From IMG/VR virus record IMGVR_UViG_3300009008_003296, positions 1-64,000 of that record: a stretch of 64,000 bases of DNA, one strand, 5' to 3'. The notes beneath the pieces were generated by a model. That model had not been told where the DNA came from. It did not search any database and saw nothing but the letters and a program-made list of their open reading frames with translations. Below, piece by piece: positions 1,903-59,253 of this stretch. Position numbers and translations under genes: made by a program. Position 1 is the first letter of the stretch. Each line of letters starts with the position of its first letter. Source of the DNA: a virus.

Positions 1903-2649
1903 ATGGATAAGATTTTAGTCATAGGGGATAGCTGTGAAGATAGATTTACCTATGGTTATTCTCACCGCTTATGCCCTGACACCCCAGCCCCAGTTTTTGT
2001 TCCCAACAAAGACATAATTAATTCAGGGATGGCTGGAAACGTATACGAAAACCTCAAAAGCTTTGGTTTTAAGTGCGATTTAATTACAAACTCAGAAAAA
2101 ATTGTTAAGCAGAGATATGTAGACGAAAAAACAAACCACACTTTCCTAAGAGTTGACACAAATGATAAGGTCTCTCCTATAGAATTTAATCCGTCCAAAA
2201 TTCAGCAAGAAGCGTATAAAGCTATAGTTATCGCTGACTACGGAAAGGGCTTTTTGAGCGACTTCGACATATCGCTTCTGTGTAGCCTTAACGAACATGT
2301 TTTTATAGATACTAAAAAAACAATAGGCCCTTGGTGCCGCGAAGCTTCTTTTATTAAGGTTAATAGTCCGGAATTTGAGAGATTCAAAAGCAAGATTTCA
2401 ATGGAAGAGTGGGCAAACAAGTTGATAGTCACCCTCGGAGACCAAGGGTGCATGTTTAGAAAAGAAAAGGGATTTTGTTATTACCCAGTGCATAGTGTAG
2501 ACGTATTTGACTTGTCCGGAGCCGGTGATACTTTTCAGGCAGCTTTAGTGACCAACTACCTAGACACCTTTGATATAGACTTAGCCCTTAAATATGCGAA
2601 CCTGTGCGCGTCAAGAGTTGTCCAAAGAAAAGGAGTGGTGCCCCCTTGA
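1903..2649 (+). CDS. PfkB-family heptose-7-phosphate kinase (HldE/RfaE kinase domain, HldA-like)
   Basis: ILVIGD, RLCPDTPAPV, GMAGNV, DYGKG and VFDLSGAGDTF. Confidence 0.85.
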   Translation: MDKILVIGDSCEDRFTYGYSHRLCPDTPAPVFVPNKDIINSGMAGNVYENLKSFGFKCDLITNSEKIVKQRYVDEKTNHTFLRVDTNDKVSPIEFNPSKIQQEAYKAIVIADYGKGFLSDFDISLLCSLNEHVFIDTKKTIGPWCREASFIKVNSPEFERFKSKISMEEWANKLIVTLGDQGCMFRKEKGFCYYPVHSVDVFDLSGAGDTFQAALVTNYLDTFDIDLALKYANLCASRVVQRKGVVPP

Positions 2650-6862: not shown

Positions 6863-7845
6863 CCAAAATTCCTAGATTTTTTATCTGCCCGGTTAGTAAA
6901 AATGTGGCTGATGCAGTTATGACTTTCTGCAAAACCCATAATACGACAATTGGGCTGATACCGTCCCGTAGACAAGTAGAGTGGGACGGGGGTTATGTAA
7001 ATAATTGGACTACACAAGCTTTTGCGCGCTACGCAAAAGAATTACCCCTAGAGCGAGATCATAGCGGCCCGGGACAAGGGTATGTAGATGATGACGGTTA
7101 TGAGTCACTAGAGCATGATTGTAAATATTTTGATTTAATCCACGTAGATCCGTGGAAAAAATATCCCTCTTACAACGAGGGTTTAAAATGGACAGTTGAT
7201 ATAATTAATTTTTGCTACCACCGCAACCGGCTACTACATTATGAGATAGGGACGGAAGAAGCCCTGCGCCCCTTCACACCTCAAGAACTCAACCAGCTGA
7301 TAGAGGATCTTAATAAACAACTAAAGCCTGAAATTTTCAAACAGATTAGATATGCTGTTATTCAGTCAGGGACCGCGCTTAAAGAAAACATTAATACAGG
7401 CGCCTACAACAAAGAGAAGCTTTCAGAAATGTTAAAAGCTCTTAAGCCATACGGACTATTAGCCAAAGAGCATAATGGGGACTACTTAGGGGGAGCCCTA
7501 GTACGCGATAAAATGAAAGTGGGATTAGATGCCATTAACATTGGGCCCGAATTTGGGTTGGTAGAGACCCAAACTTATCTTGATATTTTTAAAAAAAGCA
7601 ATACAAGCCCAGATTCTTTTTTTGATTTATTTTGGAAGTTATGTTACGACAGCAAAAGATGGACAAGGTGGGTAGATAGTAATTTTGATCCGCTTCAGAA
7701 CCGCACAAAACTTATTCAAATTTGCGGCCACTACGTATTTTCTCACCCTGTTTTTGTCAGTAAAATTAAAAAATCCTTTAAATATATAGACGAAACAATT
7801 CAAACTAATATTATTAAGCGCCTAGAAGACTACTACTATGAGTGA
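6859..7845 (+). CDS. GatZ/KbaZ-like sugar-phosphate epimerase/aldolase-fold protein
   Basis: SRRQVE.DGGY..WT, RDHSGP, IHVDP, YEIGTEE, KEHNGDY and INIGPE. Confidence 0.75.
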   Translation: MTKIPRFFICPVSKNVADAVMTFCKTHNTTIGLIPSRRQVEWDGGYVNNWTTQAFARYAKELPLERDHSGPGQGYVDDDGYESLEHDCKYFDLIHVDPWKKYPSYNEGLKWTVDIINFCYHRNRLLHYEIGTEEALRPFTPQELNQLIEDLNKQLKPEIFKQIRYAVIQSGTALKENINTGAYNKEKLSEMLKALKPYGLLAKEHNGDYLGGALVRDKMKVGLDAINIGPEFGLVETQTYLDIFKKSNTSPDSFFDLFWKLCYDSKRWTRWVDSNFDPLQNRTKLIQICGHYVFSHPVFVSKIKKSFKYIDETIQTNIIKRLEDYYYE

Positions 7846-8200
7846 CACTCGCCCTATTACTATATTTTGTGATATTGACGGTACTTTAGCCGAACACCAC
7901 CCCCCTAACATTAGTACCCATCCAGACAATTCGCTGAAAATTCTCACTGATACCATCAGCAAACTTACAGAATGGGACGCCAAAGGGTACAATATAATAT
8001 TAACAAGTGGCAGAAAAGAAGGTACCAGAGAAGCGACAGAGAGACAGTTGGCACAGGCTGGAATTTTTTACGATCAGTTGATTCTTGGTATAGGAGGGGG
8101 CATCCGTTATTTAATTAACGACAGAAAATCTGACGGGAGAGAGTCTGCCTTTGCTATTTGCCTCGAAAGGGACGAAGGAATAGGCGGTATAAATATCTAA
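7838..8200 (+). CDS. Small HAD-family phosphatase
   Basis: FCDIDGTL, LTSGR and IND. Confidence 0.75.
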   Translation: MSDTRPITIFCDIDGTLAEHHPPNISTHPDNSLKILTDTISKLTEWDAKGYNIILTSGRKEGTREATERQLAQAGIFYDQLILGIGGGIRYLINDRKSDGRESAFAICLERDEGIGGINI

Positions 8201-9197: not shown

Positions 9198-9929
9198 ATG
9201 ATAACAGTTAAAACTGACCACGAATTCTGCGTAGACCAACCGGACTACCAAATACATAACCAAGCAAAAGAACTAAAACTTAATTGTTCGGCAGGTCAAG
9301 ACAACCATAGTGATTTAGATTTAATTAATGAAACGCTTTCTCGGTTTAACAACAATCAAATTAATTGCTTGGACCTCGGGTGTGCGGGAGGGCAGTTAAT
9401 CTTAGATTACAATAAGTCTCCTAAAACTAATATCTGTATTGGCCTAGACGGTAGCTGTGGGGTCTACAAGCACCCTAATTGGGAGCACGAGAGAAGAGAT
9501 CGGGCCCTACCTACTGTTTTAAGACACGCAGACCTGACAAAACCTTTTGCTATTTTAGACGAGGGTGCTCCCGTTAAGTTTGATATCATCACATGTTGGG
9601 AAGTTATTGAACATTTTGAAGAAACTGACCTAGACATCTTTTTTACAAATGTATTGAAACACTTAAATAAAGAAGGCTTGTTTTTCGGCAGTATTGCCCT
9701 TTTCGAAGACACCCGAGATAGTGATGGTTTTCACCAAAACCATCTCAGCTATAAAGCTAACGATACTCAGTTCAAATTGCACAAAACCGTCTTCAAAGAG
9801 AAAGGGCCGTGGGATAAAATCTTATCAAACTATTTTCAAGTAGTAGATTATGACCTTCACATAAAACTAAGAAATCATTCGAATTCGTATTATTTCATGT
9901 GCCACCATAAGAGAGCCAATACTATATGA
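9198..9929 (+). CDS. Class I SAM-dependent methyltransferase
   Basis: LDLGCAGG and FDIITCWEVIEH. Confidence 0.8.
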   Translation: MITVKTDHEFCVDQPDYQIHNQAKELKLNCSAGQDNHSDLDLINETLSRFNNNQINCLDLGCAGGQLILDYNKSPKTNICIGLDGSCGVYKHPNWEHERRDRALPTVLRHADLTKPFAILDEGAPVKFDIITCWEVIEHFEETDLDIFFTNVLKHLNKEGLFFGSIALFEDTRDSDGFHQNHLSYKANDTQFKLHKTVFKEKGPWDKILSNYFQVVDYDLHIKLRNHSNSYYFMCHHKRANTI

Positions 9930-10648
9930 CATATGTTTTTGATTTAGATAATACACTTTGCGCTACCTCCTCCTCGAAGAAGTACAGCGAGAGCATCCCT
10001 TATTTAAGCGTTATTAATCAAGTTAATAACCTTAAAAAAGAGGGGCACTATATTAAAATCTTTACAGCTAGAGGTTCTGGGTCAGGCATTGATTGGCGTG
10101 ATTTAACAATACAACAACTGTTAGAGTGGGGGGTAGAATATGACGAATTAATCTTAGGCAAACCAAGTTACGACATCTGCATAGACGATAAATCTACCAG
10201 CGCTCATGACTGGAGAATTAAAAATGGCTGCCTAATAACTGGTTTTGTTGCAGGTGCTTTTGATTTACTGCACGCAGGACACTGTCTATTCTTAAAAGAG
10301 GCAAAAAGTGTATGCGATTATTTATTTGCCGCACTACAAACTGACCCTACAATTGATGATCACAAAGACCGCCCTTTACAACAGCCAAAAAATAAACCTA
10401 TTCAATCTATTGAAGAGCGAAAAATTCAACTGGAGGCCACCTCTTACGTCGATAAGATTTTGGTTTATGAAACCGAAAAAGATCTTTTAAATTTAATCAA
10501 AGAGCTTAAGCCAAACATTCGTATTCTCGGCTCCGACTATAGAGACAAAAAAGCCACAGGAGAAGAGTGGTCGGAAGGGGTAATTTACCACCAGCGTGCT
10601 CAGCAATGGTCGTCTTCAGAGCTTAGGGGGCGCGTAAATGGTAACTAG
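9926..10648 (+). CDS. HAD phosphatase + HxGH (TagD/HldC-like) nucleotidyltransferase fusion
   Basis: FDLDNTL/FTARG/GKP..DD followed by GAFDLLHAGH...GSDY...SSSELR. Confidence 0.8.
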   Translation: MTYVFDLDNTLCATSSSKKYSESIPYLSVINQVNNLKKEGHYIKIFTARGSGSGIDWRDLTIQQLLEWGVEYDELILGKPSYDICIDDKSTSAHDWRIKNGCLITGFVAGAFDLLHAGHCLFLKEAKSVCDYLFAALQTDPTIDDHKDRPLQQPKNKPIQSIEERKIQLEATSYVDKILVYETEKDLLNLIKELKPNIRILGSDYRDKKATGEEWSEGVIYHQRAQQWSSSELRGRVNGN

Positions 10649-11588
10649 CAAGTGCCCCTTAAGGGTTTCCTTGTGTGGAGGATCTACTGATTCTCCTCTT
10701 TTTATTAAAAAATATAGGACAGGAAAGGTTATTAGTTTTACTCCCAACCTTTATACCTATTCTACTTTCCACCAAGACGTAAACGGTTTTAATAATTATG
10801 ATAAAAAATATGTTGTTTCTTATTCTAAATTTGAGAGATGCTCAAAAATTCAACAAATACGTAATGACGTCGTACGCGTTGTCTTAGATTTTTTTAATAT
10901 ACCTCCCATAAAAGTTTCACTAGATTCGGATGTTTTTTCTTTTGGCTCTGGATTGGCATCTTCATCCTCTTATATCTTAAACTTAATACAAGGAATTAAT
11001 CTTCTCTACCGCTTTAATATGAGCACAGAGGAAATATGCCGCGTTGCTTTTACGCTTGAGTCAAAAGTTAATCCTTTAACTGGATATCAAGACCCTTTTG
11101 GTTGCGGCATTGGGGGTTTTAAGTTTATGGAATTTGATGCTCAAAACAATTTTCAAGTTACCTTTCTTCCTACTGATATTTTTGACAGGTTTGATTTTTA
11201 TTTAGTTTATACTAACCTTAAAAGGGAGTCAACCAACATATTAAAGTCATTAAATCTAGACGCAGCACAACCTCTTTTAGATCAAGTGGATGACATGAAG
11301 AGCGCGCTGATTAACAAAGATTACAAAAGGGTATTCTACACCTTAAATAAAAGTTGGGAGATTAAAAAAAACACAAGCAGTCAAATTTTAAAGTCTGCCG
11401 CTTTGTTGGAAATGGATGATCTTTTAGCAAAGAGCATTAATATTAGAGCTCATAAGCTTTGTGGAGCCGGAGGGGGCGGTTACTTTTTAGTTATTTCTGA
11501 CAAAAATACACAAATTAAACTTGACAAGATTTATCCTTATATTAGAATCAAGATAGACAACAAAGGATTAAGTAGTATTTCTTTTTAA
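10638..11588 (+). CDS. hddA: GHMP kinase, D-glycero-alpha-D-manno-heptose-7-phosphate kinase-like
   Basis: PLRVSLCGGSTD, GSGLASSS, GYQD and KLCGAGGGGY. Confidence 0.8.
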   Translation: MVTSKCPLRVSLCGGSTDSPLFIKKYRTGKVISFTPNLYTYSTFHQDVNGFNNYDKKYVVSYSKFERCSKIQQIRNDVVRVVLDFFNIPPIKVSLDSDVFSFGSGLASSSSYILNLIQGINLLYRFNMSTEEICRVAFTLESKVNPLTGYQDPFGCGIGGFKFMEFDAQNNFQVTFLPTDIFDRFDFYLVYTNLKRESTNILKSLNLDAAQPLLDQVDDMKSALINKDYKRVFYTLNKSWEIKKNTSSQILKSAALLEMDDLLAKSINIRAHKLCGAGGGGYFLVISDKNTQIKLDKIYPYIRIKIDNKGLSSISF

Positions 11589-40560: not shown

Positions 40561-41430
40561 ATTAAACGGGTTTTTATTCATCTTGCGTCTAATTCGCTTG
40601 GGGATAATTTGGCGTGGACACCTCAAGTAGAGGAATTTAGGCGCCTTCACCAATGCGATGTGGATGTTCACGTCTCTCCACGTTTACGTTGTCTTTTTGA
40701 TGGGGCCTACCCTTTATTGAATTTTGCTTCTGAAGTTCCTGACGGAATAAAAGGCATTTCTATAGGGTGCCACACGCCAAATGACACCACGAAACCTGTT
40801 ATTCAGATAGCCACCGATCAACTCGGGCTTCCTTATAGAGAAATTAAACCTAAAATAACGCTACCCACTAACTTAAAAAATAATTTTAATAAAAAGTATG
40901 TTTGTATTGCAACCCAATCTACGGCCCAATGCAAATACTGGAATAACCCTAGTGGGTGGAAGCAAACGGTTGATTACCTCAAAGTCTTAGGCTACGAGGT
41001 AGTATGTATAGACCGAGACGCTTGTTTTGGTGTGAAAGGCCAGTGGAACCATACTCCAGATAACGCCATAAGAAAAAACAATTTTAAAGAGAATAATGAT
41101 CCTGAGATTCCTTTGACTGATCGTATCAATGACTTATATTTTTGTGATTTTTTTATTGGACTAGGATCAGGCCTTTCGTGGCTTGCGTGGGCCCTTGAAA
41201 AGCCGGTAGTATTAATTTCTGGCTTTTCGCCACCATCTGCTGAATTTTATACCCCTTACCGAGTTATTAATCAAAATGTTTGCAATTCTTGCTGGGGTGA
41301 CCCTGATCACCCTTTTGATAAAGGTGACTGGATGTGGTGCCCTCGCCACAAAGATACTTCTCGTCATTTTGAATGCAGCAAAGAAATAACCTTTGAAATG
41401 GTTAAAAAACAAATAGATCGTTTACTATGA
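40561..41430 (+). CDS. TibC/Aah-like autotransporter O-heptosyltransferase homolog 1 (probable ATT start)
   Basis: SLGDNLAW, YVCIATQSTAQCKYWNN..GW, FFIGLGSGLSWLAWA..KPVVLISGFS...EFYTPYR and CNSCW...WCPRHK....FEC. Confidence 0.88.
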   Translation: MKRVFIHLASNSLGDNLAWTPQVEEFRRLHQCDVDVHVSPRLRCLFDGAYPLLNFASEVPDGIKGISIGCHTPNDTTKPVIQIATDQLGLPYREIKPKITLPTNLKNNFNKKYVCIATQSTAQCKYWNNPSGWKQTVDYLKVLGYEVVCIDRDACFGVKGQWNHTPDNAIRKNNFKENNDPEIPLTDRINDLYFCDFFIGLGSGLSWLAWALEKPVVLISGFSPPSAEFYTPYRVINQNVCNSCWGDPDHPFDKGDWMWCPRHKDTSRHFECSKEITFEMVKKQIDRLL

Positions 41431-41810
41431 AAATAGAAGTATCAAACGGAGAAATTTTAGATAAACTATCTATCCTTGAGCTGAAGCTTCATTTTATGGA
41501 AGATGAATCGCAAAAAGCTAATGTCCAAAAAGAATACGATCTCTTAAAAACAGTAAGCACAAAAATCCTTTTGACCAACAACAAAACCTTTCCTGAGGGT
41601 TTGTATAACGAGTTACGTCATATTAACTTGAAATTATGGTCTATTGAACATAAAATTAGATCAAAAGAATTTAACGATGAGTTTGATAAAGGTTTTATCC
41701 AATTAGCTCGCTCTGTTTACAAAACCAATGACAAAAGAGCCCGCATCAAAAAAGAAATCAATGTGCTCACAGGTTCGATGCTTGTAGAGGAAAAACACTA
41801 TGAAGACTAA
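41427..41810 (+). CDS. DUF6165-like protein
   Basis: VSNGEILDKLSIL, N.KLW.IE..IR and FIQLARSVY.TND.RA.IK. Confidence 0.75.
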   Translation: MKIEVSNGEILDKLSILELKLHFMEDESQKANVQKEYDLLKTVSTKILLTNNKTFPEGLYNELRHINLKLWSIEHKIRSKEFNDEFDKGFIQLARSVYKTNDKRARIKKEINVLTGSMLVEEKHYED

Positions 41811-42693
41811 AATTTTTTTTAAAGCAAATGGCCTTGGCGACACCATTGGATGGATGGGGCAAGTGGAGAGGTACAAAAAAGCTACAGGGAATCAAGTTGA
41901 TGTTTTTTGTAGATTTAATGATATTTTTGGGGGAGAGAACATTAACATATATCCAAAGAATAGCCCACTAATCCAAGACACTTATGATTACTCTTTTGTG
42001 ATAGACTATCACGGTTGGGATAGGCCCCCTCATCTTACGAATGAAGTGAAAGACATTAAAGAAGGAGGGCTGATTCAAATGGCTTCTGAAATTTTGGGAT
42101 TCGAGGAAGTAGAGGAAATAAAACCTATCCTTAAGTTTAAACCTAAAAGTATAAAACTCAGACGCCCCACGGTTTCGATGGCCTCTCTATCCACAATGCA
42201 GCAACGATTTTGGACTCTCAAGGGGGGATGGAACAGGGTTATCTCTTATTTAAAGCAGCGGAGAATTGATGTTGTTAGTCTAGACCAAGATATACAATTT
42301 GGAGGTGGTGTACCTCGAGGAGACATTCCTGCTTATACCCCTATTCCATCAGCATCAAAAAATAAAACTGGTCTTTCTCTTCGCGCAGTAGCGAACTATA
42401 TCAATAAATCGTTATTTTTTATGGGGTTGAGCGGAGGTCTTTCGTGGCTTGCGTGGGCGCTCAATAAGCCTGTGGTAATGGTGGTGGGACCAATTAGTGA
42501 AAGATATCATTTTGAAAACCCTTACCTAGTACAAAACAAAAACGTCTGCCATGCGTGTTGGGACAAACATGAGATGGTAGCGAACGATTGGTATTGGTGC
42601 CCTGAAAAGAAAGATTTCGAATGTAGCAGACAAATAACGCCCGAGATGGTGATCGAAAAAATTGATCTAATTTTAAATTTAAATAAGATATGA
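41800..42693 (+). CDS. TibC/Aah-like O-heptosyltransferase homolog 2 (divergent)
   Basis: GLGDTIGW, GLSGGLSWLAWALNKPVV and CHACW...WCP....FECSRQIT. Confidence 0.82.
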   Translation: MKTKIFFKANGLGDTIGWMGQVERYKKATGNQVDVFCRFNDIFGGENINIYPKNSPLIQDTYDYSFVIDYHGWDRPPHLTNEVKDIKEGGLIQMASEILGFEEVEEIKPILKFKPKSIKLRRPTVSMASLSTMQQRFWTLKGGWNRVISYLKQRRIDVVSLDQDIQFGGGVPRGDIPAYTPIPSASKNKTGLSLRAVANYINKSLFFMGLSGGLSWLAWALNKPVVMVVGPISERYHFENPYLVQNKNVCHACWDKHEMVANDWYWCPEKKDFECSRQITPEMVIEKIDLILNLNKI

Positions 42694-43559
42694 ATTATTT
42701 TGTTGTTCATTCGGATAAGAAATATGCTAAAAACGCTGAAAAGTTATTTTATTTTTTAGAAAAACACTCTTGTCATCAGGTTATATACGTTACGTTAGAT
42801 TTTTATTATAAATCTCCCTTTGCTAACGTGATCCCTGTTACTTATAATACAAACGTGAGCGTAGACAGTACTATAGAATACGGGAGGAACTTACCTTTTA
42901 TGTTTGTGAAACCCACTATCTGTCAATTTGTTTTAAGTCTTTTTGAGGGGGCTAATTTTTGTTATCTTGACTCTGACATTATTCCCCTTCCGAATATAGA
43001 TTCTATATTTAATAAATTTAATTCTTTGGAAAATTACCCCCTATTTGCGCAGCATTGTTGGCCCGGATTACTCTGGAACCACATGGACGTTGACGAAGAC
43101 CATGAACAAAACTTATTTACTTATTTAAATTACGACAAAGCGGGCCTCAGAAACGGCGTCTTGGCCGAGAGGTATATCCAAGGCTGTCTGTTTCTTTTTA
43201 ACGAAAAATGCCAACTTTTTTTAAAAAAATGGGTTGAGGTGTGTAACGACGAATATATAACAAAGAACTATAAGAAGTATGCCCCAGCACACGAAGAGTC
43301 CATTGCTAACGCTTTGTTGTGGGCGAACCAGTATCATAAAGATTTGGGAGCAGTTCATATTGATTTGCCGGTTTCTGAAGACAAGCGACATGATCTTACG
43401 GAATTTTTTAATTTAATAAGAAAACCCCCTCAAGATGAGTTTTTCTACGATGAGTTTAGCCGCTTCCCAAGTCGTTCGAATTTCGACAGTATTAAATGTC
43501 TACATGGAAAACTGGACGATAAAAATATGAATTTGCTTAAACACTATGAATGGAACTAA
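42690..43559 (+). CDS. GT-A (GT8-like) glycosyltransferase
   Basis: YLDSD, HEESIANALLW and LHGK. Confidence 0.65.
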   Translation: MNYFVVHSDKKYAKNAEKLFYFLEKHSCHQVIYVTLDFYYKSPFANVIPVTYNTNVSVDSTIEYGRNLPFMFVKPTICQFVLSLFEGANFCYLDSDIIPLPNIDSIFNKFNSLENYPLFAQHCWPGLLWNHMDVDEDHEQNLFTYLNYDKAGLRNGVLAERYIQGCLFLFNEKCQLFLKKWVEVCNDEYITKNYKKYAPAHEESIANALLWANQYHKDLGAVHIDLPVSEDKRHDLTEFFNLIRKPPQDEFFYDEFSRFPSRSNFDSIKCLHGKLDDKNMNLLKHYEWN

Positions 43560-44469
43560 AAAGCCAATATCAATCAACCACTATTTTCCCGAAGGCGAAG
43601 ATTGGCGAACCTATCCTGCGATCAAGGTAACCACTGCCGACGCGTTCCATTATTGCGCTATGCCCTTGGAATTCGCTATGTACCGTGGTATCGAAAAGGT
43701 GTGGAGCTGCGAGCTTGGCGACAACTCTTGGGCGACCTTCGATGACACTGAGATGTACAACGCCGTTTTAACTGATCGTAACGGGAATATAATAATGCAA
43801 AAAAAATGGAACCCTCTAGAGGATGGAGATTTTTTTTATCAGGCTCTTTATCTTTATTGCATGCGTCTCACCAGTGAGGGTAAAAAACCTAAAGGTATCG
43901 CGATAGGAACCCATGATGGAGCATTTGGAGAATGGGCCCCTGTAGTACAAGAGGATTTAACTGATGCTTGCTTGGTTGAGGCGTCGCAACCTCAATTTGC
44001 GAACCTTGTTCGCAATTATCAAAGGTACCCCAACGTTAAATTGGTCAACCAGTTGATTACCACAGAAGGGCAAGATATAGAATTTTTCGAAGGAGGAAAT
44101 GGTTACACTAATTCTGTTGTAGAAAGAGTCATAAGAGACTGGGAAACGCAGGAAATCAAAAGCTCTATAAGATCCTCTTGTTCAATTAATGATTTAATTG
44201 GCAATTACATATCCAGCGGAGAGCGACTAGATTGGCTTCATTTAGATGTTGAAGGATATGATGCGGATTTGCTAAGAGCTCTCAAGCAACCGCTCCCGCC
44301 TTTTATTATTTTTGAAAATCACCCTTCTCACCACAAGGAAGAACTGGAGTATAATGAACAACAAAAAAAACGGATTCAAACTTATCTGAGGGATAGCGGG
44401 CACGACATAGTATCTTCAGGTGTTTCTTGCTTAGCAACCCTCCCCTATGAAGTTCAAAACATTAAATGA
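43546..44469 (+). CDS. FkbM-family methyltransferase with N-terminal accessory domain
   Basis: IGTHDG, LVEA, LHLDVEGYD and IIFE. Confidence 0.75.
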   Translation: MNGTKKPISINHYFPEGEDWRTYPAIKVTTADAFHYCAMPLEFAMYRGIEKVWSCELGDNSWATFDDTEMYNAVLTDRNGNIIMQKKWNPLEDGDFFYQALYLYCMRLTSEGKKPKGIAIGTHDGAFGEWAPVVQEDLTDACLVEASQPQFANLVRNYQRYPNVKLVNQLITTEGQDIEFFEGGNGYTNSVVERVIRDWETQEIKSSIRSSCSINDLIGNYISSGERLDWLHLDVEGYDADLLRALKQPLPPFIIFENHPSHHKEELEYNEQQKKRIQTYLRDSGHDIVSSGVSCLATLPYEVQNIK

Positions 44470-47400
44470 AAATTAAAGCACACTGCCCCTTTTTAGGTCG
44501 TACCGGGTATAATGCCCATGCTCGAGGCTTTTTTACTGCTTTAAGCGAGTTAATTGACTTGCGGGTTGACAACTACACATGGTGCGATGATACTGATAAC
44601 TATCTTACCGACCATCAAAAACGTATTATTTCCGAGGTGACCTTAAGAGCTCCCGACGGAGAGCAACAGTATCCTCCCGACTGGAAAGAAGAAATTGAAA
44701 GCTTTAAGTATGATGTAGACATTGTACTACACGAACATTGTCATCGACACTTCTGGCGCGAATACACGAAGCCAAAAATTGCCTATACTGTATGGGAGAC
44801 AGATCGGATGAATGATGATTTTTTTGAACGTCTTTTAGAATATGACCAGCTTTGGGTTCCATCTGAATGGCAAAAAGAATGCGCTATAGGGCAAGGTTAT
44901 CCGTGCGATCGTGTTAAAGTGGTGCCTGAGGCGGTAGAACCTGATTGTTTTCCCGATAATGCAATTGTGCCGGATGATTCAATATTTACATTTTGTGTGT
45001 TAGGGCGCTGGGACCACCGTAAATCAATTACTGAAATTTTGGAATGTTTTGTTGAGCTTTTTGGAAACAATCCTAAGGTGCAGCTTATTGCCTCTATTGA
45101 TAACCATTATGCTGAAGATGGCCTATCCACCGAAGAAAGGTTTAAAAAAATGGGGTGGGGTAATATAAAAAATATTATATTAAAATCTTTTCCCTCTCGC
45201 CCCGAGTATATCGATATTCTACGGCGCAGTCATGTTTTTTTATCCTGTGCGCGTTCGGAAGGATGGAATATTCCCCTTATCGAAGCCATGGCATGCGGCG
45301 TACCATCCATCTATAGCGATTGCTCTGGCCAAACAGAATTTGCATCTGGGAAGGGTATTCCAATTCCTATCTTAGGGAAGGAGAAAGCACGCATTGGCCA
45401 TGGTGGTATTGCTAGCAAATGGACCACTGAGATGCCGGGCCACTATTTTACCCCGGATTTTACACGTCTTAAAGAGAAGATGCGGTTTTGTATAGACAAT
45501 TACGCTACGCTTAAGACCAGAGCTCTCAAGGAATCAGTAGAGATTAGATCGAAGTATACTTGGGCAAACGCCGCCCTCATTGCGTTGAAGAACTTAGAAA
45601 ACTTTGCCCCAAAAACCCAAAAGGTCAATGTATTAGTACACGCTGATGATGAGTATTTAAAATATGCTAATATATGTATAGAGTCTATTAGAAAACATTC
45701 TGGTTATAATGTTATTTTATATGGGTATGATACCCATTTTAAAGGAAAATTTATTCCCCCGAACACTGAAGTTCGGCGGTTGCGAAAATGGCCCCTATCA
45801 AAAAACGGTCGTAACTTAGGCGTCATGAGTTGCCGCGTTTCTATGTGTTTAGATGCGCTCGAGCAGGATCCTAATGATTTATTTATTATGGTGGATTCCG
45901 ATATGGTTGCAATGAAAGACCTGCGTCCCTTTTTTAGAGAGCAATTCGATAGATTAGAAGATTACCCCCTTTGCATTACCTATAAGCACGACAATCTTAT
46001 TCACTCTAGGCTAGAGCCAGATGGCACCACAATCCAAAAAGGGCACGGTGATGAAGCGGCCTCTGTTTTTGGTGTTGAACCTAGAGGGGTTGCCTTCAAT
46101 CATCCCATTGATTTTACTATTGGTCATGGGGTTGTTATTTTTGATAAAAAATCAGCGCCATTCTTCTCAGAGTTGCTGGAGCTTTCCTTACGGAGTCTGA
46201 AGGAAGAGCTTGTTGACCTCATTGATGATAAGTCTTTTGAATCAGAAAGAATCCACAATATTTTGATGTGGAAATATGGCTTTACACAACACTTACCTCT
46301 TTCATGGGTTTCTAAGGATGAAGATAATGATTTTCTTCAACCAGACCTGAAAACGTACACGGACGCTGGATTTGATGTGGTTTACACTCATCAAGATAGA
46401 CGTTCTTATGACATTGCCCCAGAGCAACTTTTATTTTTGCATGGCAGATCTTTTCCCCCTCTCTCTTCCCAATTAATGATTATCGCTCATCCTGACGACG
46501 AAACTATCTTTGGGTTCTCTGAGTTAGATGGCGACACTGATTGGAAAATAGTGTGTGTTTCTAGCGATAATCGTGAGGATGATTTCCATAAGGCGATGGC
46601 ATTTTATGGGATTAAAGACTACGAGATGTGGGGTTTTAACTCTTCGGTTATGGAAGCATTTCCTTCTGACTCATTAGATAAAAAAATAGAACATTTAATC
46701 AACAGCCAACAATGGAAAAAAGTAGTTACCCACAACCCATGCGGAGAGTATGGTCATATTCAGCATAAAAATGTTTTTGATTCGGTCAAAAAATATTGTG
46801 ATAATTTTTATATTTTTTGCAAATCTGCCTCAATATTAGGGCCCCACGAACTTCAGCGCAAACAGGAGGCTTTAAAAATCTACAGCTCAGAGGATATCAT
46901 CCCTCAACTCCAACAGCTTAACGGAGACTGGTATATTATGCCCGACATGTCTACCAACTATATAGAGCATGGTACTGTAGAATTATATAAACCAAGCAGA
47001 CATACCACCCCTTTTATTCACTGTTGGGAAAAGACCCCCGATTATTCGCCGGTACCCTTTCATAAAAAAAAGGAGTTCCCCTCTTTTGTCCCAAAAATTA
47101 AAGTGCACTGTCCTTTTCTCGGACACACTGGCCTCAGCGCTTCCGCGCGCGGGACGTTCACAGCATTAAGCAGTATTGTTGATCTGCGCGTTGACAACTA
47201 TACGTGGTGCGATGACCGTCACAACTACCTTACTGAACACCAGAAAAAGATTATTTCTGAAGTGACCTTGAAGGACCCTCAAGACAATTATATCGAGAAA
47301 CAGCACCCACCTGAGTGGAAGAAAGAAATAGAAGATTTCCAATACGACATAGATATCGTGTTTCATGAGTACGATCACGACCACTTTCTTAAGAAGTATA

Positions 47401-49070
47401 GTAAGCCAAAAATTGCCTACACCGTATGGGAGACAGATTTATACGCTGCTCACTTTTTTAAAACACTTCTTGAATACGACGAATTATGGGTTCCATCTAA
47501 ATGGCAAAGAGAATATAGCATAGCGCAGGGTTACCCGGCTAGTCGCGTTAAGGTAGTGCCTTTTGCTGTAGAGTCCGATTGTACCCCCAGTTCTGATGGT
47601 GAGTCTTTAGATGATTCAGTTTTTACCTTTTGTTTGTTTGGGCGTTGGGATTATCGCAAATCTACCACGGAGATTATCCGATGTTTTGTTGAATTGTTTG
47701 GTAACAACCCAAAAGTACAACTAATAGCTTCTATTGATAATCCTTTTGCCCTTGATGGGCTTTCGACGGAAGAGCGTAAAGCAAAAATGGGGTGGGGGGA
47801 GGTTGATAATATTATTCTTAAGTCTTTCCCCAATCGTAAAGAATATGTCAAAATTATTCAAGAAAGCCACGTATTTTTATCTTGTGCACGTGCAGAAGGG
47901 TGGAATATACCTTTATTAGAAGCGATGGCTTGCGGGACTCCTGCTATTTATAGTGATTGTTCTGCTCAACTAGAATTTGCCCAAAATAAAGGTATTCCGG
48001 TTCGTGTCTTAGGAAAGGAGAAAGCTGGAGTAGGTATAAGGGAAGTAGTCAGCCGATTTACTGCGAACCTTCCCGGCCATTACTTTAGTCCGGATTACGA
48101 GCACCTGAAAAGCCAGATGCAGTATTGTATAGACAACTATAAAAGTTTAAAAACAACAGCCCTCAAGGAGTCCGCCGAACTTCGTCAAAAGTATACGTGG
48201 CAACATACTGCCCGCATTGCCCTTGACCATTTAGACAGTTTTTGTAAATCTCAGGCCATTAATATTCCCAAACCAAACCCTTCCCCTGCTTCATCCAAAT
48301 TTATGAAAAAGAAGATATTCTTTCCCCTCATTACCTACGGAGGTATGTGTAATACTGAATTCGCTATTGGTGCTATGGGTACCCTTTTGCGGATTCAGCA
48401 AAGTTCTGATATTGATATGGTGGTTTCTTCCATTGTCTTTGAGAGTTTGATTAGTCGGGCTCGAAACGCTTCTGCTGCTTGGGCGCTTTCGTCAGATTAT
48501 ACCCATTTATTGTTTATTGATTCTGATATTCATTTTGAGGCAAACGATGTCTTCAAACTAATTGAAGCCGACAAAGATGTGGCGGTGGGTGTTTACCCTA
48601 AAAAATATTACAATCGCCACAAAATGGAATTTTTAGCCAAGGACGCACCTCATGTTTTTAACGATAAAAATGAATGGAGAGCCCTTGCGACGGATTTCTC
48701 TAGCGAATGCGGCGACAAGGCTTTAGATAAGGCACGGCAAGGCGAAATATTCACGGTAGATTATGCAGCCACAGGTTTCATGCTTATTAAAACTGATGTC
48801 TTTAAAAAAATTATTGACAAGCGCCCTGACCTGAAGTATACTAATGATGTTGATGGCTACATGAGTGCCGGAGACAACTTTTATGACTTTTTCACAGTGG
48901 GTGTAAATCAATCAAATAAAAAATATGAAAGCGAGGACTACGGCTTTTGCCAGCTCTGGCGTTCGGTCGGCGGACAAATCCACGTTATACCCTCTATCAA
49001 TCTTACCCACACGGGAAGAAACCATTACCCCGGAAACATCCAAGCTCAAGCTCAAATGTTTCATAAATAA
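44466..49070 (+). CDS. 1534-aa multidomain glycan enzyme: GT4 - GT-A - PIG-L deacetylase - GT4 - GT2-like
   Basis: Two EGWNIPL.EAMACG domains, MVDSD, AHPDDE...HNPCGEYGHIQH and SLISRARN..LFIDSD..SEDYGFC. Confidence 0.85.
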   Translation: MKIKAHCPFLGRTGYNAHARGFFTALSELIDLRVDNYTWCDDTDNYLTDHQKRIISEVTLRAPDGEQQYPPDWKEEIESFKYDVDIVLHEHCHRHFWREYTKPKIAYTVWETDRMNDDFFERLLEYDQLWVPSEWQKECAIGQGYPCDRVKVVPEAVEPDCFPDNAIVPDDSIFTFCVLGRWDHRKSITEILECFVELFGNNPKVQLIASIDNHYAEDGLSTEERFKKMGWGNIKNIILKSFPSRPEYIDILRRSHVFLSCARSEGWNIPLIEAMACGVPSIYSDCSGQTEFASGKGIPIPILGKEKARIGHGGIASKWTTEMPGHYFTPDFTRLKEKMRFCIDNYATLKTRALKESVEIRSKYTWANAALIALKNLENFAPKTQKVNVLVHADDEYLKYANICIESIRKHSGYNVILYGYDTHFKGKFIPPNTEVRRLRKWPLSKNGRNLGVMSCRVSMCLDALEQDPNDLFIMVDSDMVAMKDLRPFFREQFDRLEDYPLCITYKHDNLIHSRLEPDGTTIQKGHGDEAASVFGVEPRGVAFNHPIDFTIGHGVVIFDKKSAPFFSELLELSLRSLKEELVDLIDDKSFESERIHNILMWKYGFTQHLPLSWVSKDEDNDFLQPDLKTYTDAGFDVVYTHQDRRSYDIAPEQLLFLHGRSFPPLSSQLMIIAHPDDETIFGFSELDGDTDWKIVCVSSDNREDDFHKAMAFYGIKDYEMWGFNSSVMEAFPSDSLDKKIEHLINSQQWKKVVTHNPCGEYGHIQHKNVFDSVKKYCDNFYIFCKSASILGPHELQRKQEALKIYSSEDIIPQLQQLNGDWYIMPDMSTNYIEHGTVELYKPSRHTTPFIHCWEKTPDYSPVPFHKKKEFPSFVPKIKVHCPFLGHTGLSASARGTFTALSSIVDLRVDNYTWCDDRHNYLTEHQKKIISEVTLKDPQDNYIEKQHPPEWKKEIEDFQYDIDIVFHEYDHDHFLKKYSKPKIAYTVWETDLYAAHFFKTLLEYDELWVPSKWQREYSIAQGYPASRVKVVPFAVESDCTPSSDGESLDDSVFTFCLFGRWDYRKSTTEIIRCFVELFGNNPKVQLIASIDNPFALDGLSTEERKAKMGWGEVDNIILKSFPNRKEYVKIIQESHVFLSCARAEGWNIPLLEAMACGTPAIYSDCSAQLEFAQNKGIPVRVLGKEKAGVGIREVVSRFTANLPGHYFSPDYEHLKSQMQYCIDNYKSLKTTALKESAELRQKYTWQHTARIALDHLDSFCKSQAINIPKPNPSPASSKFMKKKIFFPLITYGGMCNTEFAIGAMGTLLRIQQSSDIDMVVSSIVFESLISRARNASAAWALSSDYTHLLFIDSDIHFEANDVFKLIEADKDVAVGVYPKKYYNRHKMEFLAKDAPHVFNDKNEWRALATDFSSECGDKALDKARQGEIFTVDYAATGFMLIKTDVFKKIIDKRPDLKYTNDVDGYMSAGDNFYDFFTVGVNQSNKKYESEDYGFCQLWRSVGGQIHVIPSINLTHTGRNHYPGNIQAQAQMFHK
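48814..48842 (+). promoter_or_regulatory. Intragenic promoter TTGACA-N17-TATACT
   Basis: Near-consensus; about 240 nt before the next gene. Confidence 0.5.
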
Positions 49071-58493: not shown

Positions 58494-58799
58494 ATGAATA
58501 AGATTTTTTTATTATTTTTAATTATTTTGACAGGATGCGCTTCTCCCCGAATTGCCCTTGAAAACAAACCTATTCCTTTCGTTAAGCCTCCATTGCCAGC
58601 CGGAATCGACTTGCGCGAAGTGGAGTGGCAAGTATTAAGCGTCAACACAAACGCTTGGTTTGCGCTAGATACTGAAAATTATTTAGGTCTTTCAAAAAAC
58701 ATGGTAGACATAGCTGAATACATACAAAAATTGCGGATTGTAACAGAGCAATATCAAACCAATTATAGCAAAATGTTCCCAAATAAGACAAATGACTAA
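58494..58799 (+). CDS. Lipoprotein, putative outer-membrane spanin
   Basis: Lipobox LTGC, Pro-rich segment and ALD.ENY..LSKN..DI..YI. Confidence 0.55.
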   Translation: MNKIFLLFLIILTGCASPRIALENKPIPFVKPPLPAGIDLREVEWQVLSVNTNAWFALDTENYLGLSKNMVDIAEYIQKLRIVTEQYQTNYSKMFPNKTND

Positions 58800-59253
58800 A
58801 ATTGCTATTGTAAGTGGAGGGTTCGACCCTGTTCATGTAGGTCATGTTGAGTTAATCAATCAAGCGAGTTCAATCGTAAGTCACGACGGAGGGGGCGTAA
58901 TCGTCATTCTTAATACAGATGAATTTTTAACACGCAAAAAAGGGAAGCCCTTTATGCCATTTTTTGAGCGTCAAATAATTTTAGAAAATTTAAAAAATGT
59001 TGACTTGGTAATAAAGCCGACCGATAAAGATGATACTGTCAGAGAAACCCTCAAGTCGCTTGCAAAATTGGCAGAGAATGAATACAAGTTATATTTTTGC
59101 CAAGGAGGGGATAGAACTTACGACAAGGACAACCCTTCTAATACGCCCGAACACGATGTATGCAAAGAAGTGGGCATTGAACCGATTTATGGATTAGGAG
59201 ACAAAGTTCAAAGTAGCAGTTGGCTCATAAAAAACAGTAGTAAAAAGAATTAA
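58792..59253 (+). CDS. HxGH cytidylyl/adenylyltransferase (HldC/TagD-like)
   Basis: SGGFDPVHVGH, KKGKPFMP..ER, GGDR and QSSS. Confidence 0.85.
   Translation: MTKIAIVSGGFDPVHVGHVELINQASSIVSHDGGGVIVILNTDEFLTRKKGKPFMPFFERQIILENLKNVDLVIKPTDKDDTVRETLKSLAKLAENEYKLYFCQGGDRTYDKDNPSNTPEHDVCKEVGIEPIYGLGDKVQSSSWLIKNSSKKN

What the first reader, a model, noticed from the sequence alone, without database searches (positions are those of the whole stretch)
40561..42693. Phage-encoded protein O-heptosylation system: two TibC/Aah-like transferases plus NDP-heptose supply genes
Seen: two ORFs carry the hallmark of bacterial autotransporter heptosyltransferases (LGD..xW, YVCIATQST..KYWNN, GLSWLAWA and the four-Cys CxxCW...WCP...FEC finger). 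They flank a DUF6165-like gene. Elsewhere in the window are an HldE-type kinase (1903..2649), an HddA kinase (10638..11588), HAD phosphatases (7838, 9926), HxGH nucleotidyltransferases (9926, 58792) and a GT9-like gene (36460). Established: TibC/Aah transfer heptose from ADP-heptose to Ser residues of autotransporters and use an iron-binding Cys finger; HldE and HddA start the beta (ADP) and alpha (GDP) heptose routes. Inference: the phage makes its own activated heptose and heptosylates virion or host-surface proteins, possibly as the priming step for larger glycans built by the many other GTs. No autotransporter is in the window, so the substrates would be new. GmhA was not seen here.
Basis: partly seen in the sequence, partly recalled or inferred. 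Interest (0 to 1): 0.85.

Follow-up and report, generated by a model that had tools for sequence, protein, structure and literature searches.

The report
Phage TibC-like heptosyltransferase pair with DUF6165
An uncultured marine phage carries two true relatives of the E. coli enzyme TibC, which attaches heptose sugars to adhesin proteins, at the head of a six-gene sugar-building operon; this suggests that the phage sugar-coats a protein of its own, but the target was not found and nothing has been tested at the bench.

Summary
Genes 40561-41430 (A) and 41800-42693 (C) are real members of the TibC/Aah family, not LPS-type GT9 enzymes. They flank a real DUF6165 gene (B).

- **A:** scores 289-303 bits on TIGR04414 (cut-off 200). 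Its model overlays TibC at TM 0.89-0.90. It keeps the catalytic Asp, all four donor-contact residues and the four iron-finger Cys.
- **A's start:** the catalytic Asp lies upstream of the first canonical start codon, so A must begin at ATT 40561.
- **C:** belongs to a virus-only clade of downstream paralogues. In these, the Arg that reads adenine in TibC is replaced by Val/Ala.
- **Both:** lack TibC's N-terminal beta-barrel, and no autotransporter is present.

A to F (40561-49070) form one overlapping operon. Related phages fuse the same modules (GT4, GT2, FkbM, TibC-like) into single proteins of 700-1740 residues.

DUF6165 sits next to GT9 heptosyltransferases in 46 of 80 bacterial loci, so it looks like a general heptosyltransferase partner.

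The heptose-supply genes are plausible but all score below family cut-offs, and GmhA was not found. The acceptor was not found either, because the structural half of the genome is missing.

This scan has already reported similar phage TibC-like cassettes in at least 18 other genomes. I found no paper describing them.

The parts
40561..41430 (+). Gene A: barrel-less TibC/Aah-family (BAHT) glycosyltransferase, 289 aa, probably starting at ATT 40561
   Evidence: TIGR04414 at 289.5-302.9 bits, cut-off 200. TibC 4rap E = 2e-66. AF2 pLDDT 90.2; Foldseek TM 0.89-0.90 and rmsd 2.1-2.3 A to TibC, against TM 0.49-0.59 for WaaC/WaaF. Asp15, Thr121, Lys125, Arg188, Trp207 and Cys241/244/260/272 match TibC D110, T226, K230, R286, W305 and C339/342/358/370. 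The frame is closed by TAA at 40549-51 and has no ATG/GTG/TTG before 40609.
41427..41810 (+). Gene B: DUF6165 protein, 127 aa, predicted four-helix bundle
   Evidence: Pfam DUF6165 at 55.6 bits and DUF4254 at 32.3 bits. 1751 homologues with 40 invariant, mostly charged, columns among 17 aligned. AF2 pLDDT 87.3, four helices, no significant PDB fold match. Abuts TibC-like genes in phages (19 of 80 loci) and GT9 heptosyltransferases in bacteria (46 of 80 loci).
41800..42693 (+). Gene C: divergent TibC/Aah-family paralogue, 297 aa, barrel-less, with a remodelled nucleotide pocket
   Evidence: TIGR04414 at 165 bits, below the cut-off. TibC E = 3e-29. Keeps the Asp, Thr, Trp and four Cys; K230 becomes R and R286 becomes V. 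In 27 orthologues the R286 position is V or A in all 27, with a conserved Arg two residues earlier in 24 of 27. Falls in a virus-only clade of downstream paralogues, support 0.956.
42690..43559 (+). Gene D: 289-aa viral glycan-cassette domain of unknown family (DSD motif; possible GT-A)
   Evidence: No Pfam or NCBIfam hit. In the ESM Atlas the same fold occurs alone or fused to methyltransferase, GT4, PIG-L and GT9 domains in viral proteins, with one GT8 lead. Homologues lie beside TibC-like genes in L004, L025, L027 and L029.
43546..44469 (+). Gene E: FkbM-family methyltransferase
   Evidence: Pfam Methyltransf_21 at 23.3 bits, cut-off 22.7. The same domain is fused to TibC-like domains in L005, L006, L019 and L038.
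44466..49070 (+). Gene F: 1534-aa multi-glycosyltransferase polyprotein, last gene of the overlapping A-F operon
   Evidence: PHROG glycosyltransferase families 2170 (two stretches) and 4356, plus phrog_1574. Start and stop codons overlap those of neighbours by 4-14 nt all the way from A to F.
1903..2649 (+). PfkB sugar kinase, closest to the HldE/HldA heptose-7-P kinase
   Evidence: TIGR02198 at 117 bits (cut-off 345), next best ribokinase at 49 bits. HldA 4e84 E = 8e-9.
9926..10648 (+). HAD phosphatase fused to a cytidylyltransferase-like nucleotidyltransferase
   Evidence: CTP_transf_like at 39.8 bits. Best NCBIfam hit is rfaE_dom_II at 71 bits (cut-off 181.5); the N-terminal part is HAD-IIIA or capsule-phosphatase-like. 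PDB hits are generic cytidylyltransferases and the capsule phosphatase 9iqw.
10638..11588 (+). GHMP kinase of the HddA (heptose-7-P kinase) type
   Evidence: NF049969 HddA at 99.8 bits (cut-off 600), next best fucokinase at 55.6 bits. Full-length matches to heptose-7-P kinase structures 4n3o, 3k85 and 4usk, E = 5e-22 to 2e-16.
7838..8200 (+). Small HAD-family phosphatase
   Evidence: HAD_PNKP at 31.5 bits, cut-off 27.6. Only sub-threshold HAD subfamily hits in NCBIfam.
58792..59253 (+). Stand-alone cytidylyltransferase-like nucleotidyltransferase
   Evidence: CTP_transf_like at 47 bits. rfaE_dom_II at 42.9 bits and glycerol-3-P cytidylyltransferase at 44.5 bits, both below their cut-offs.

Best explanation
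Genes A and C are barrel-less phage versions of the bacterial autotransporter heptosyltransferases (the BAHT family, which includes TibC and Aah). With the small helical protein DUF6165 (B), they head a translationally coupled operon of soluble enzymes, A to F, that builds a glycan in the infected cell's cytoplasm.

**Shown here**
- Family membership of A, and clear kinship of C.
- Conservation in both of the catalytic base, the heptose-contacting Trp and the iron finger.
- The operon structure.
- Fusion of the same modules into single proteins in related phages.

**Inferred**
- A works as TibC does. It would be an inverting GT-B enzyme in which Asp15 activates an acceptor hydroxyl to attack C1 of ADP-heptose. 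Arg188 would read the adenine, Thr121 and Lys125 would hold the beta-phosphate, and Trp207 would hold heptose O4.
- The acceptor is most likely Ser/Thr of a protein, probably a virion protein encoded in the missing half of the genome.
- D, F and the methyltransferase E then extend and cap the sugar.
- C is a second transferase with an altered nucleotide pocket, so it may use another donor nucleotide or add a second heptose.
- B is an accessory partner of heptosyltransferases.
- The donor comes partly from phage genes (HldE-like and HddA-like kinases, a HAD-nucleotidyltransferase fusion). The first step, GmhA, would be supplied by the host or by the unseen part of the genome.
For: **Family and fold**
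- TIGR04414 at 289-303 bits for A, against 19 bits or less for LPS heptosyltransferase models.
- TibC E = 2e-66 for A and 3e-29 for C.
- The model of A overlays TibC at TM 0.89-0.90, against 0.49-0.59 for WaaC/WaaF.

**Residues** (roles taken from PMC4358343, read)
- D110, W305 and the four Cys are kept in every sequence that covers those columns, out of 167 family sequences (D110 falls in a gap in 2 N-terminally cut ones).
- K230 and R286 are kept in all 22 members of A's clade. R286 is V or A in all 27 C orthologues.

**Pathway link**
- In 36 IMG/VR loci the TibC-like domain is mostly the C-terminal part of GT4/GT2/FkbM polyproteins of 700-1740 aa, often followed by a second TibC-like gene.
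- These downstream paralogues form one clade together with C.

**Protein acceptor**
- Every characterised family member modifies proteins (PMC4358343).
- None of the 67 ORFs scanned in the window has more than one hydrophobic segment, so nothing resembles a polytopic flippase, polymerase, ABC transporter or priming phosphoglycosyltransferase.
- In other phages the TibC-like genes lie beside terminase (12 loci), portal (7 loci) and tail sheath (7 loci) genes.
- In cultured Microcystis phage Mel-JY01 and in L042 they lie beside proline-free Gly-Ser/Thr collagen-like ORFs.

**DUF6165**
- It is adjacent to TibC-like genes in 19 of 80 viral loci and to GT9 heptosyltransferases in 46 of 80 bacterial loci, 37 of them directly downstream on the same strand.

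**Supply**.
Against: - Nothing here shows sugar transfer, a donor or an acceptor.
- Both proteins lack the N-terminal beta-barrel. Deleting it abolishes TibA heptosylation by TibC (PMC4358343).
- The hydrophobic tip of the thumb hairpin that builds the TibC dodecamer is Gly-Gln in A.
- There is no autotransporter, no collagen-like fibre and no Ser/Thr-saturated protein in the 77-kb record or in two syntenic relatives.
- A has no canonical start codon before its catalytic Asp.
- The supply genes all score far below curated cut-offs, GmhA is absent, and an HldE-like kinase occurs in only 1 of 9 other phage records with TibC-like genes.
- Fusion to GT4/GT2 modules fits a sugar acceptor just as well.
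- The complete Mel-JY01 genome has no match to the GmhA, HldE-kinase or HldE-adenylyltransferase models and has Ile at the R286 position. No GmhA was found in the control cyanobacterium either. Some family members may therefore not use ADP-heptose at all.
Confidence: 0.5

Rival explanations
1. The TibC-like modules act on a sugar rather than a protein. They would add heptose to a growing oligo- or polysaccharide, for example host LPS, capsule or another surface glycan that the phage remodels during infection. The operon would then be a host-surface modification cassette and not a protein glycosylation system.
For: - The domains are fused to GT4, GT2 and FkbM modules, as in polysaccharide assembly enzymes.
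- The window holds many other glycan genes: GT10 fucosyltransferase, Gmd/Fcl, carbamoyltransferase, aminotransferase and a CAP59-like transferase.
- DUF6165 partners with LPS-type GT9 enzymes in bacteria.
- No acceptor protein is found in the 77 kb.
- The beta-barrel implicated in TibA handling is absent.
Against: - All characterised members of TIGR04414 modify proteins (PMC4358343).
- The proteins score 19 bits or less on LPS heptosyltransferase models.
- No lipid-carrier priming enzyme, flippase, polymerase or exporter, and no polytopic membrane protein at all, is encoded in the window.
- In other phages the genes sit in structural modules and beside Gly-Ser/Thr fibres.
Confidence: 0.28
2. 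One or both enzymes use a donor other than ADP-heptose, meaning another nucleotide or another sugar. 'Heptosyltransferase' would then be the wrong name, at least for C.
For: - The Arg that hydrogen-bonds adenine N1 and excludes guanine in TibC is Val or Ala in all 27 C orthologues, and Lys230 is Arg in 16 of 27.
- The window also encodes an HddA-type kinase, which belongs to the GDP-heptose route.
- Mel-JY01 has Ile at that position and no match to the GmhA, HldE-kinase or HldE-adenylyltransferase models.
- C scores below the family cut-off.
Against: - A keeps all four donor contacts.
- Trp305, which holds heptose O4, is invariant in both clades.
- C orthologues carry a conserved Arg two residues earlier that might still reach the base.
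- Three of the five proposed supply genes have a heptose-pathway enzyme as their best family match.
Confidence: 0.3
3. Gene A is a decaying or poorly expressed gene. Having lost its canonical start codon, it would be translated only from TTG 40609 into a protein that lacks the first strand and the catalytic Asp, leaving C as the only active enzyme.
For: - There is no ATG, GTG or TTG between the in-frame stop at 40549-51 and 40609.
- TTG 40609 has its own GGGGA Shine-Dalgarno-like motif.
Against: - The 16 codons between ATT and TTG encode the conserved strand and the LGD loop almost exactly as in relatives that start with ATG, GTG or TTG at or within a few codons of the ATT position.
- An AAAGGG motif lies 5-10 nt upstream of the ATT, and the upstream gene stops 2 nt before it, which favours reinitiation.
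- The rest of the gene has no defects, and every functional residue is kept.
Confidence: 0.1

Closest known systems
TibC-TibA and Aah-AIDA-I of E. coli (bacterial autotransporter heptosyltransferases, BAHT; TIGR04414; PDB 4rap/4rb4; PMC4358343)
   Same: - The same sequence family: A is 41-45% identical to bacterial members and scores above the curated cut-off.
- The same GT-B fold with a four-stranded N-lobe (TM 0.89-0.90).
- The same catalytic Asp, and the same four-Cys iron finger.
- In A, the same ADP-heptose contacts.
- A soluble cytoplasmic enzyme.
   Different: - No N-terminal beta-barrel (TibC residues 1-97).
- The thumb tip is not hydrophobic, so a dodecamer is doubtful.
- No autotransporter partner.
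- Encoded by a phage, as a tandem pair around DUF6165.
- Embedded in, or in relatives fused to, GT4/GT2/FkbM modules.
- A and C fall outside the well-supported clade of 33 long bacterial forms that holds an E. coli plasmid gene next to an autotransporter.
- C has Val at the adenine-reading Arg.
LPS core heptosyltransferases WaaC/WaaF/WaaQ (GT9)
   Same: - Distantly related GT-B enzymes that use ADP-heptose.
- In bacteria, DUF6165 sits directly upstream of GT9 genes of this type.
   Different: - A and C score only 17-19 bits on these models.
- A's model overlays them at only TM 0.49-0.59.
- Going by the published comparison and my general knowledge, not by a check made here, the LPS enzymes have a full Rossmann-type N-lobe, no iron finger and a lipid A-core acceptor.
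Virus-encoded glycosylation of virion proteins, such as the chlorovirus PBCV-1 multidomain GT-GT-methyltransferase A064R and mycobacteriophage capsid/tail glycosylation (from my own knowledge; the papers listed were not read)
   Same: A virus carries its own soluble glycosyltransferases, including fused GT-methyltransferase enzymes, and decorates its own structural proteins in the cytoplasm.
   Different: - Those systems use unrelated glycosyltransferase families and other sugars.
- No BAHT-type enzyme or heptose has been reported in them.
- Here, glycosylation of a virion protein is inferred, not observed.
Earlier reports of this scan on other phage genomes (e1-6004183, e1-5782289, e1-5895122, e1-5362643 and others)
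   Same: TibC/Aah-like domains with an intact iron finger in phages, joined to GT4 and FkbM modules, sometimes with DUF6165 and ADP-heptose genes.
   Different: - Those loci abut proline-free Gly-Ser/Thr collagen-like fibres.
- This record and its two syntenic relatives contain no such fibre in the DNA available.
- I could reproduce the pairing only in L042 and in Mel-JY01.

Membership tests
BAHT (TibC/Aah; TIGR04414) | Scores above the curated cut-off of the family model and far above LPS GT9 models | tested here: met
   A scores 289.5-302.9 bits (cut-off 200), and the best LPS heptosyltransferase model scores 18.9 bits. C scores only 165 bits, so on its own it is below the cut-off. Two other members of its clade reach 212 bits.
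BAHT (TibC/Aah; TIGR04414) | TibC-type GT-B catalytic domain | tested here: met
   AF2 model of A has pLDDT 90.2. The best PDB matches are all TibC chains (TM 0.86-0.90, rmsd 2.1-2.7 A, 40-41% identity); the next best are GT9 enzymes at TM 0.49-0.59. C was not folded.
BAHT (TibC/Aah; TIGR04414) | Catalytic base Asp110 | tested here: met
   Asp15 of A (only if translation starts at ATT 40561) and the Asp in C's GLGDTIGW motif. The residue is kept in every sequence that covers the column, out of 167 family sequences.
BAHT (TibC/Aah; TIGR04414) | ADP-heptose contacts Thr226, Lys230, Arg286, Trp305 | tested here: met
   A keeps all four. C keeps Thr and Trp but has Arg in place of Lys230 and Val in place of Arg286, so C does not meet this feature.
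BAHT (TibC/Aah; TIGR04414) | Four-Cys iron finger (Cys339, 342, 358, 370) | tested here: met
   All four Cys are present in A and C and invariant in 167 sequences. Iron binding itself cannot be tested with these tools.
BAHT (TibC/Aah; TIGR04414) | N-terminal beta-barrel (TibC 1-97), needed for TibA heptosylation | tested here: not met
   Both proteins begin at TibC residue 96-101. There is no PF21129 match, and upstream in-frame stop codons close both frames.
BAHT (TibC/Aah; TIGR04414) | Beta-hairpin thumb with a hydrophobic tip that builds the dodecamer | tested here: inconclusive
   The model of A has a hairpin at residues 155-164. The tip residues aligned to Phe265/Val266 are Gly-Gln in A and Pro-Ala in C, but these columns also vary in the bacterial clade in my alignment.
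BAHT (TibC/Aah; TIGR04414) | Partner autotransporter substrate encoded nearby | tested here: not met
   No PF03797 beta-domain in the 77-kb record. By contrast, the E. coli plasmid homologue is followed directly by an autotransporter.
BAHT (TibC/Aah; TIGR04414) | Transfers heptose to Ser of a protein | not testable with these tools
   Needs enzyme assays or glycoproteomics.
DUF6165 (PF19662) | Matches the Pfam model above its gathering score | tested here: met
   55.6 bits against a cut-off of 27, over residues 1-126.
ADP-/GDP-heptose biosynthesis pathway | GmhA sedoheptulose-7-P isomerase | tested here: not met
   No SIS_2 match in the 77-kb record, which is about half a genome.
ADP-/GDP-heptose biosynthesis pathway | Heptose-7-P kinase (HldE domain I or HddA) | tested here: inconclusive
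   The best family hits are the right ones but far below the cut-offs (117 vs 345 bits, and 100 vs 600 bits). Solved heptose kinases are the top PDB hits (E = 8e-9 and 5e-22).
ADP-/GDP-heptose biosynthesis pathway | GmhB phosphatase and heptose-1-P nucleotidyltransferase | tested here: inconclusive
   The HAD plus cytidylyltransferase-like fusion has rfaE_dom_II as its best hit, at 71 bits against a cut-off of 181.5. Its PDB hits are generic cytidylyltransferases.

The most novel reading that the evidence does not exclude
Many aquatic phages, this one included, may O-heptosylate their own virion proteins (fibres or sheath decorations) with a virus-specific branch of the TibC/Aah family. In this reading, two paralogues with different nucleotide pockets prime or double-modify Ser/Thr using phage-made ADP- and GDP-type heptose. 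DUF6165 would be a so far unrecognised accessory subunit shared by phage BAHT enzymes and bacterial LPS heptosyltransferases. Fused or neighbouring GT4/GT-A/FkbM modules would then build and cap the glycan.
Probability: 0.3. Interest if true: 0.8.

Novelty: new variant of a known kind. Interest (0 to 1): 0.62.

Why it matters
**Why the finding would matter if true**
- BAHT enzymes are known only as bacterial virulence-associated enzymes that heptosylate autotransporter adhesins.
- Here, a barrel-less branch is widespread in uncultured aquatic phages. It also occurs in one cultured cyanophage, Mel-JY01, where it is annotated only as 'methyltransferase FkbM', and in huge phages.
- It is wired into glycan assembly lines and often lies beside structural genes.
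- If these enzymes glycosylate virion proteins, phage particles in the sea and in lakes would carry heptose-based O-glycans. That could affect host recognition, particle stability and grazing or immune recognition.

**Testable leads**
- DUF6165, a family of unknown function, keeps company with GT9-superfamily heptosyltransferases in both bacteria and phages.
- The C-type paralogues offer a natural experiment on how the TibC nucleotide pocket sets donor choice.

Tried and rejected
- **DNA search:** a DNA-level search of the region against GenBank phages found nothing.
- The contexts of the metagenomic homologues could therefore not be read, nor could longer contigs carrying the identical C protein (up to 89.9 kb) be fetched. 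The missing structural half of this phage could not be reached.
- **Fold of DUF6165:** Foldseek gave no hit at E of 0.001 or below, and VIA-align gave Z of 7.4 or below. That is within the noise for helical bundles, so no fold assignment was made.
- **Absent features:** GmhA and autotransporter searches in the record were negative.
- **Candidate acceptors:** Gly-X-Y and Ser/Thr-rich ORF scans of the record and of syntenic relatives G009 and G010 were negative. The only Ser/Thr-rich products in the window are two small proteins, 31355-31603 and 32096-32494 (20-24% S+T). They are weak candidates.
- **6-deoxyheptose idea, dropped:** I considered that Gmd/Fcl (11591-13601) make GDP-6-deoxyheptose, as DmhA/DmhB do. 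A GT10 fucosyltransferase (2594-3574) and a PMI/nucleotidyltransferase protein (4330-6234) make plain GDP-fucose the simpler reading.
- **Barrel-replacement idea, not tested:** I considered that DUF6165 replaces the missing beta-barrel on the N-lobe. This cannot be tested without complex prediction, and it is weakened by DUF6165's pairing with ordinary GT9 enzymes in bacteria.
- **Thumb-tip argument, left inconclusive:** those columns vary in the bacterial clade too.
- **Literature:** searches for phage BAHT enzymes, DUF6165 and Mel-JY01 found nothing relevant.


Full report
**Setting.** The window is the first 64 kb of a 77,181-bp IMG/VR virus record, linear and estimated to be about 52% complete. 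All long ORFs are on the + strand. Phage hallmark genes are present: ribonucleotide reductase, DnaB helicase, DNA polymerase, a Lon-like protease and RIIA. GC content is 36-44%. Orthologues of genes B and C come largely from marine samples, including Tara. Two syntenic relatives, G009 and G010, share 70-88% nucleotide identity with the window.

**Check of the observation.** ORF A (TTG 40609 to 41430; frame open from 40552), ORF B (41427-41810) and ORF C (41800-42693) exist as described.
- A scores 289.5 bits on NCBIfam TIGR04414, the 'autotransporter strand-loop-strand O-heptosyltransferase' model (cut-off 200). In the six-frame search it reaches 302.9 bits. C scores 165 bits. LPS heptosyltransferase models give 19 bits or less.
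- Against solved structures only TibC is hit: E = 2e-66 for A over TibC residues 99-385, and E = 3e-29 for C over residues 101-379.
- An AlphaFold model of A (pLDDT 90.2) overlays TibC chains at TM 0.89-0.90 and rmsd 2.1-2.3 A. The best LPS GT9 structures reach only TM 0.49-0.59.
- B matches Pfam DUF6165 at 55.6 bits (cut-off 27).

**Residue-level comparison with TibC.** Roles are taken from Yao et al. 2014 (PMC4358343).
- A, numbered from ATT 40561, keeps the catalytic base (Asp15 = D110).
- A keeps the beta-phosphate contacts (Thr121 = T226, Lys125 = K230).
- A keeps the Arg that hydrogen-bonds adenine N1 and explains ADP specificity (Arg188 = R286).
- A keeps the Trp that holds heptose O4 (Trp207 = W305) and the four iron-finger Cys (241, 244, 260, 272).
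- The position that sets D,D versus L,D stereoselectivity (Pro300 in TibC, Ser in Aah) is Gly in A and Ser in C.
- C keeps the Asp, Thr, Trp and the four Cys, but has Arg at K230 and Val at R286.
- In 27 C orthologues with at least 51% identity, the R286 position is Val or Ala in every one. A conserved Arg lies two residues earlier in 24 of 27. The nucleotide-base pocket of C-type enzymes is thus consistently remodelled. Whether this changes the donor is an inference.

**Differences from TibC.**
- Both proteins start at the first strand of the catalytic N-lobe and lack the beta-barrel (TibC residues 1-97). Deleting that barrel abolishes TibA heptosylation.
- The thumb hairpin is predicted in A (residues 155-164), but the tip is Gly-Gln rather than Phe-Val. 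Those columns also vary in bacterial members in my alignment, so I leave the oligomer question open.
- No autotransporter is encoded in the record.

**Start of gene A.**
- An in-frame TAA at 40549-51 closes the frame, and there is no ATG, GTG or TTG before TTG 40609. Yet the conserved strand and the LGD loop with the catalytic Asp lie in between.
- Relatives place ATG, GTG or TTG at or within a few codons of the position of ATT 40561.
- An AAAGGG motif lies 5-10 nt upstream, and the upstream gene's stop codon ends 2 nt before the ATT.
- A therefore most likely starts at ATT. A product made from the TTG would be inactive.

**Operon and modularity.**
- Genes A to F (40561-49070) overlap at every junction by 4-14 nt. 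The order is A, DUF6165, C, a 289-aa viral domain with a DSD motif (D), an FkbM methyltransferase (E) and a 1534-aa multi-glycosyltransferase (F).
- In 36 IMG/VR loci with relatives of A, the TibC-like domain is mostly the C-terminal part of proteins of 700-1740 aa. These also carry GT4, GT2 and FkbM domains, some with the TibC barrel. In 14 of the 36 loci a second TibC-like gene follows.
- A FastTree phylogeny of 167 domains puts C with all these downstream paralogues in one virus-only clade (support 0.956). A falls in a clade of 22 short marine forms (0.998). An E. coli plasmid gene that precedes an autotransporter falls in a separate clade of 33 long bacterial forms (0.998). The tree uses one method only, and its sampling is biased toward relatives of A.
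- In the syntenic relative G009, A is followed directly by F. The 3.0-kb block B-C-D-E is therefore an accessory cassette bounded exactly by gene borders. G010 has it.
- In GenBank phages only four records hold a relative. One is cultured Microcystis phage Mel-JY01, where it is the C-terminal domain of a 1226-aa protein annotated 'methyltransferase FkbM'. The other three are huge uncultured phages.

**DUF6165.**
- B has 1751 homologues, with many invariant charged residues. It models as a four-helix bundle with no convincing structural relative.
- In 80 viral loci, 19 have a TibC-like gene within 6 kb, mostly abutting. Other frequent neighbours are an NAD-dependent epimerase/dehydratase and GT10- and GT11-like transferases.
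- In bacteria it occurs in at least 587 species genomes. In 46 of 80 loci examined its neighbour is a GT9 heptosyltransferase of about 353 aa, and in 37 of these the GT9 gene lies directly downstream on the same strand.
- One metagenomic protein, P0270, fuses DUF6165 to a C-type enzyme. A frameshift artefact cannot be excluded there.
- DUF6165 is thus a conserved companion of heptosyltransferases of the GT9 superfamily. Its role is unknown.

**Donor supply.**
- The best family matches of 1903-2649, of the C-terminal half of 9926-10648, and of 10638-11588 are the HldE kinase domain, the HldE adenylyltransferase domain and HddA respectively. All score far below the curated cut-offs.
- The GHMP kinase matches solved heptose-7-P kinases over its full length (E = 5e-22). 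The PfkB kinase matches HldA at E = 8e-9. The nucleotidyltransferase matches only generic cytidylyltransferases.
- GmhA is absent from the 77 kb.
- Of nine other phage records with TibC-like genes, only one has an HldE-like kinase and a GmhA-like gene: a complete 319-kb genome. The complete Mel-JY01 genome and a second complete record (256 kb) have no HldE-like kinase.
- A phage-made heptose donor is therefore plausible here, but it is not shown and is not general.
- Gmd/Fcl (11591-13601) together with a GT10 fucosyltransferase (2594-3574) point to a separate GDP-fucose branch.

**Acceptor.**
- None of the 67 ORFs scanned in the window has more than one hydrophobic segment, so nothing resembles a polytopic flippase, polymerase, exporter or priming enzyme. 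This fits a soluble acceptor.
- In other phages the TibC-like genes lie beside terminase (12 loci), portal (7) and tail sheath (7) genes. The sheath gene directly downstream in L014 carries an insertion that is 23-31% Ser/Thr.
- Earlier reports of this scan on other genomes proposed proline-free Gly-Ser/Thr collagen-like fibres as the targets. I tested that lead.
  - Among 57 loci or records with TibC-like genes that I held, such ORFs occur in L042, directly after DUF6165.
  - They also occur in Mel-JY01, on both sides of the fusion gene. One of these is an open frame of at least 1016 aa that the record annotates mostly on the opposite strand.
  - They do not occur in this record or in its two syntenic relatives.
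The acceptor therefore remains unknown.

**Verdict.**
- The genes are real phage members of the TibC/Aah family in a new architectural variant: barrel-less, paired, with DUF6165, and modular with GT4 and FkbM.
- Protein O-heptosylation of a virion component is the best reading, at roughly even odds.
- A sugar acceptor or a different donor remain live alternatives.
- I found no paper describing phage BAHT enzymes or DUF6165. This scan has noted the same kind of cassette in at least 18 other genomes.

Noticed in passing
window 41435-44465 (genes B, C, D, E): This 3.0-kb block is missing from the syntenic relative G009, where A is followed directly by the polyprotein F. It is present in G010. It is an accessory cassette bounded exactly at gene borders.
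   Followed up: partly
bacterial loci L121-L200: DUF6165 lies next to a GT9 heptosyltransferase of about 353 aa in 46 of 80 bacterial loci, and in 37 of them the GT9 gene is directly downstream on the same strand. The bacteria include Bacteroidota, Proteobacteria and Desulfobacterota. This gives a functional lead for a family of unknown function.
   Followed up: partly
L119 (Microcystis phage Mel-JY01, PP395634) 2-3049 and 9444-9983, + strand: Long open frames encode proline-free Gly-Ser/Thr collagen-like repeats: 606 residues in Gly-X-Y runs, with 84% Ser/Thr at X/Y in the longest run. They flank the GT4-FkbM-TibC fusion gene. The record annotates mostly opposite-strand hypothetical genes there, and calls the fusion only 'methyltransferase FkbM'.
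   Followed up: partly
P0270 (metagenomic protein, 337 aa): DUF6165 (64% identical to B) is fused in frame to a C-type TibC-like enzyme (56% identical to C) that is cut short at its C-terminus. This is either a real fusion or a frameshift artefact at the 11-nt B/C overlap.
   Followed up: partly
L014:7798-11763: A 1322-aa tail sheath homologue lies directly downstream of a TibC-like gene pair. It has an insertion of about 500 residues that is 23-31% Ser/Thr. Seven loci share this arrangement. It is a possible acceptor.
   Followed up: no
Its fold and function are open.
   Followed up: partly
window 2594-3574, 4330-6234, 11591-13601: A GT10 alpha-1,3-fucosyltransferase-like gene, a protein with cupin (PMI-like), nucleotidyltransferase and kinase-like parts, and Gmd plus Fcl. 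Together they look like a separate GDP-mannose to GDP-fucose branch feeding a fucosyltransferase.
   Followed up: partly
P0058/P0185, P0139, P0267, P0271 (public MAG records): Proteins named as coming from Verrucomicrobia, Nitrospina/Nitrospinaceae and Pacearchaeota MAGs are identical or near-identical to proteins on IMG/VR viral contigs; for example, P0058 equals L040:5138-6001. These MAG contigs are probably phage DNA that was binned wrongly.
   Followed up: no
window 31355-31603 and 32096-32494: Two small Ser/Thr/Gly/Pro-rich proteins with (E/D)ATGP repeats are the only Ser/Thr-rich products in the window (20-24% S+T). They are weak candidates for glycosylation acceptors.
   Followed up: partly
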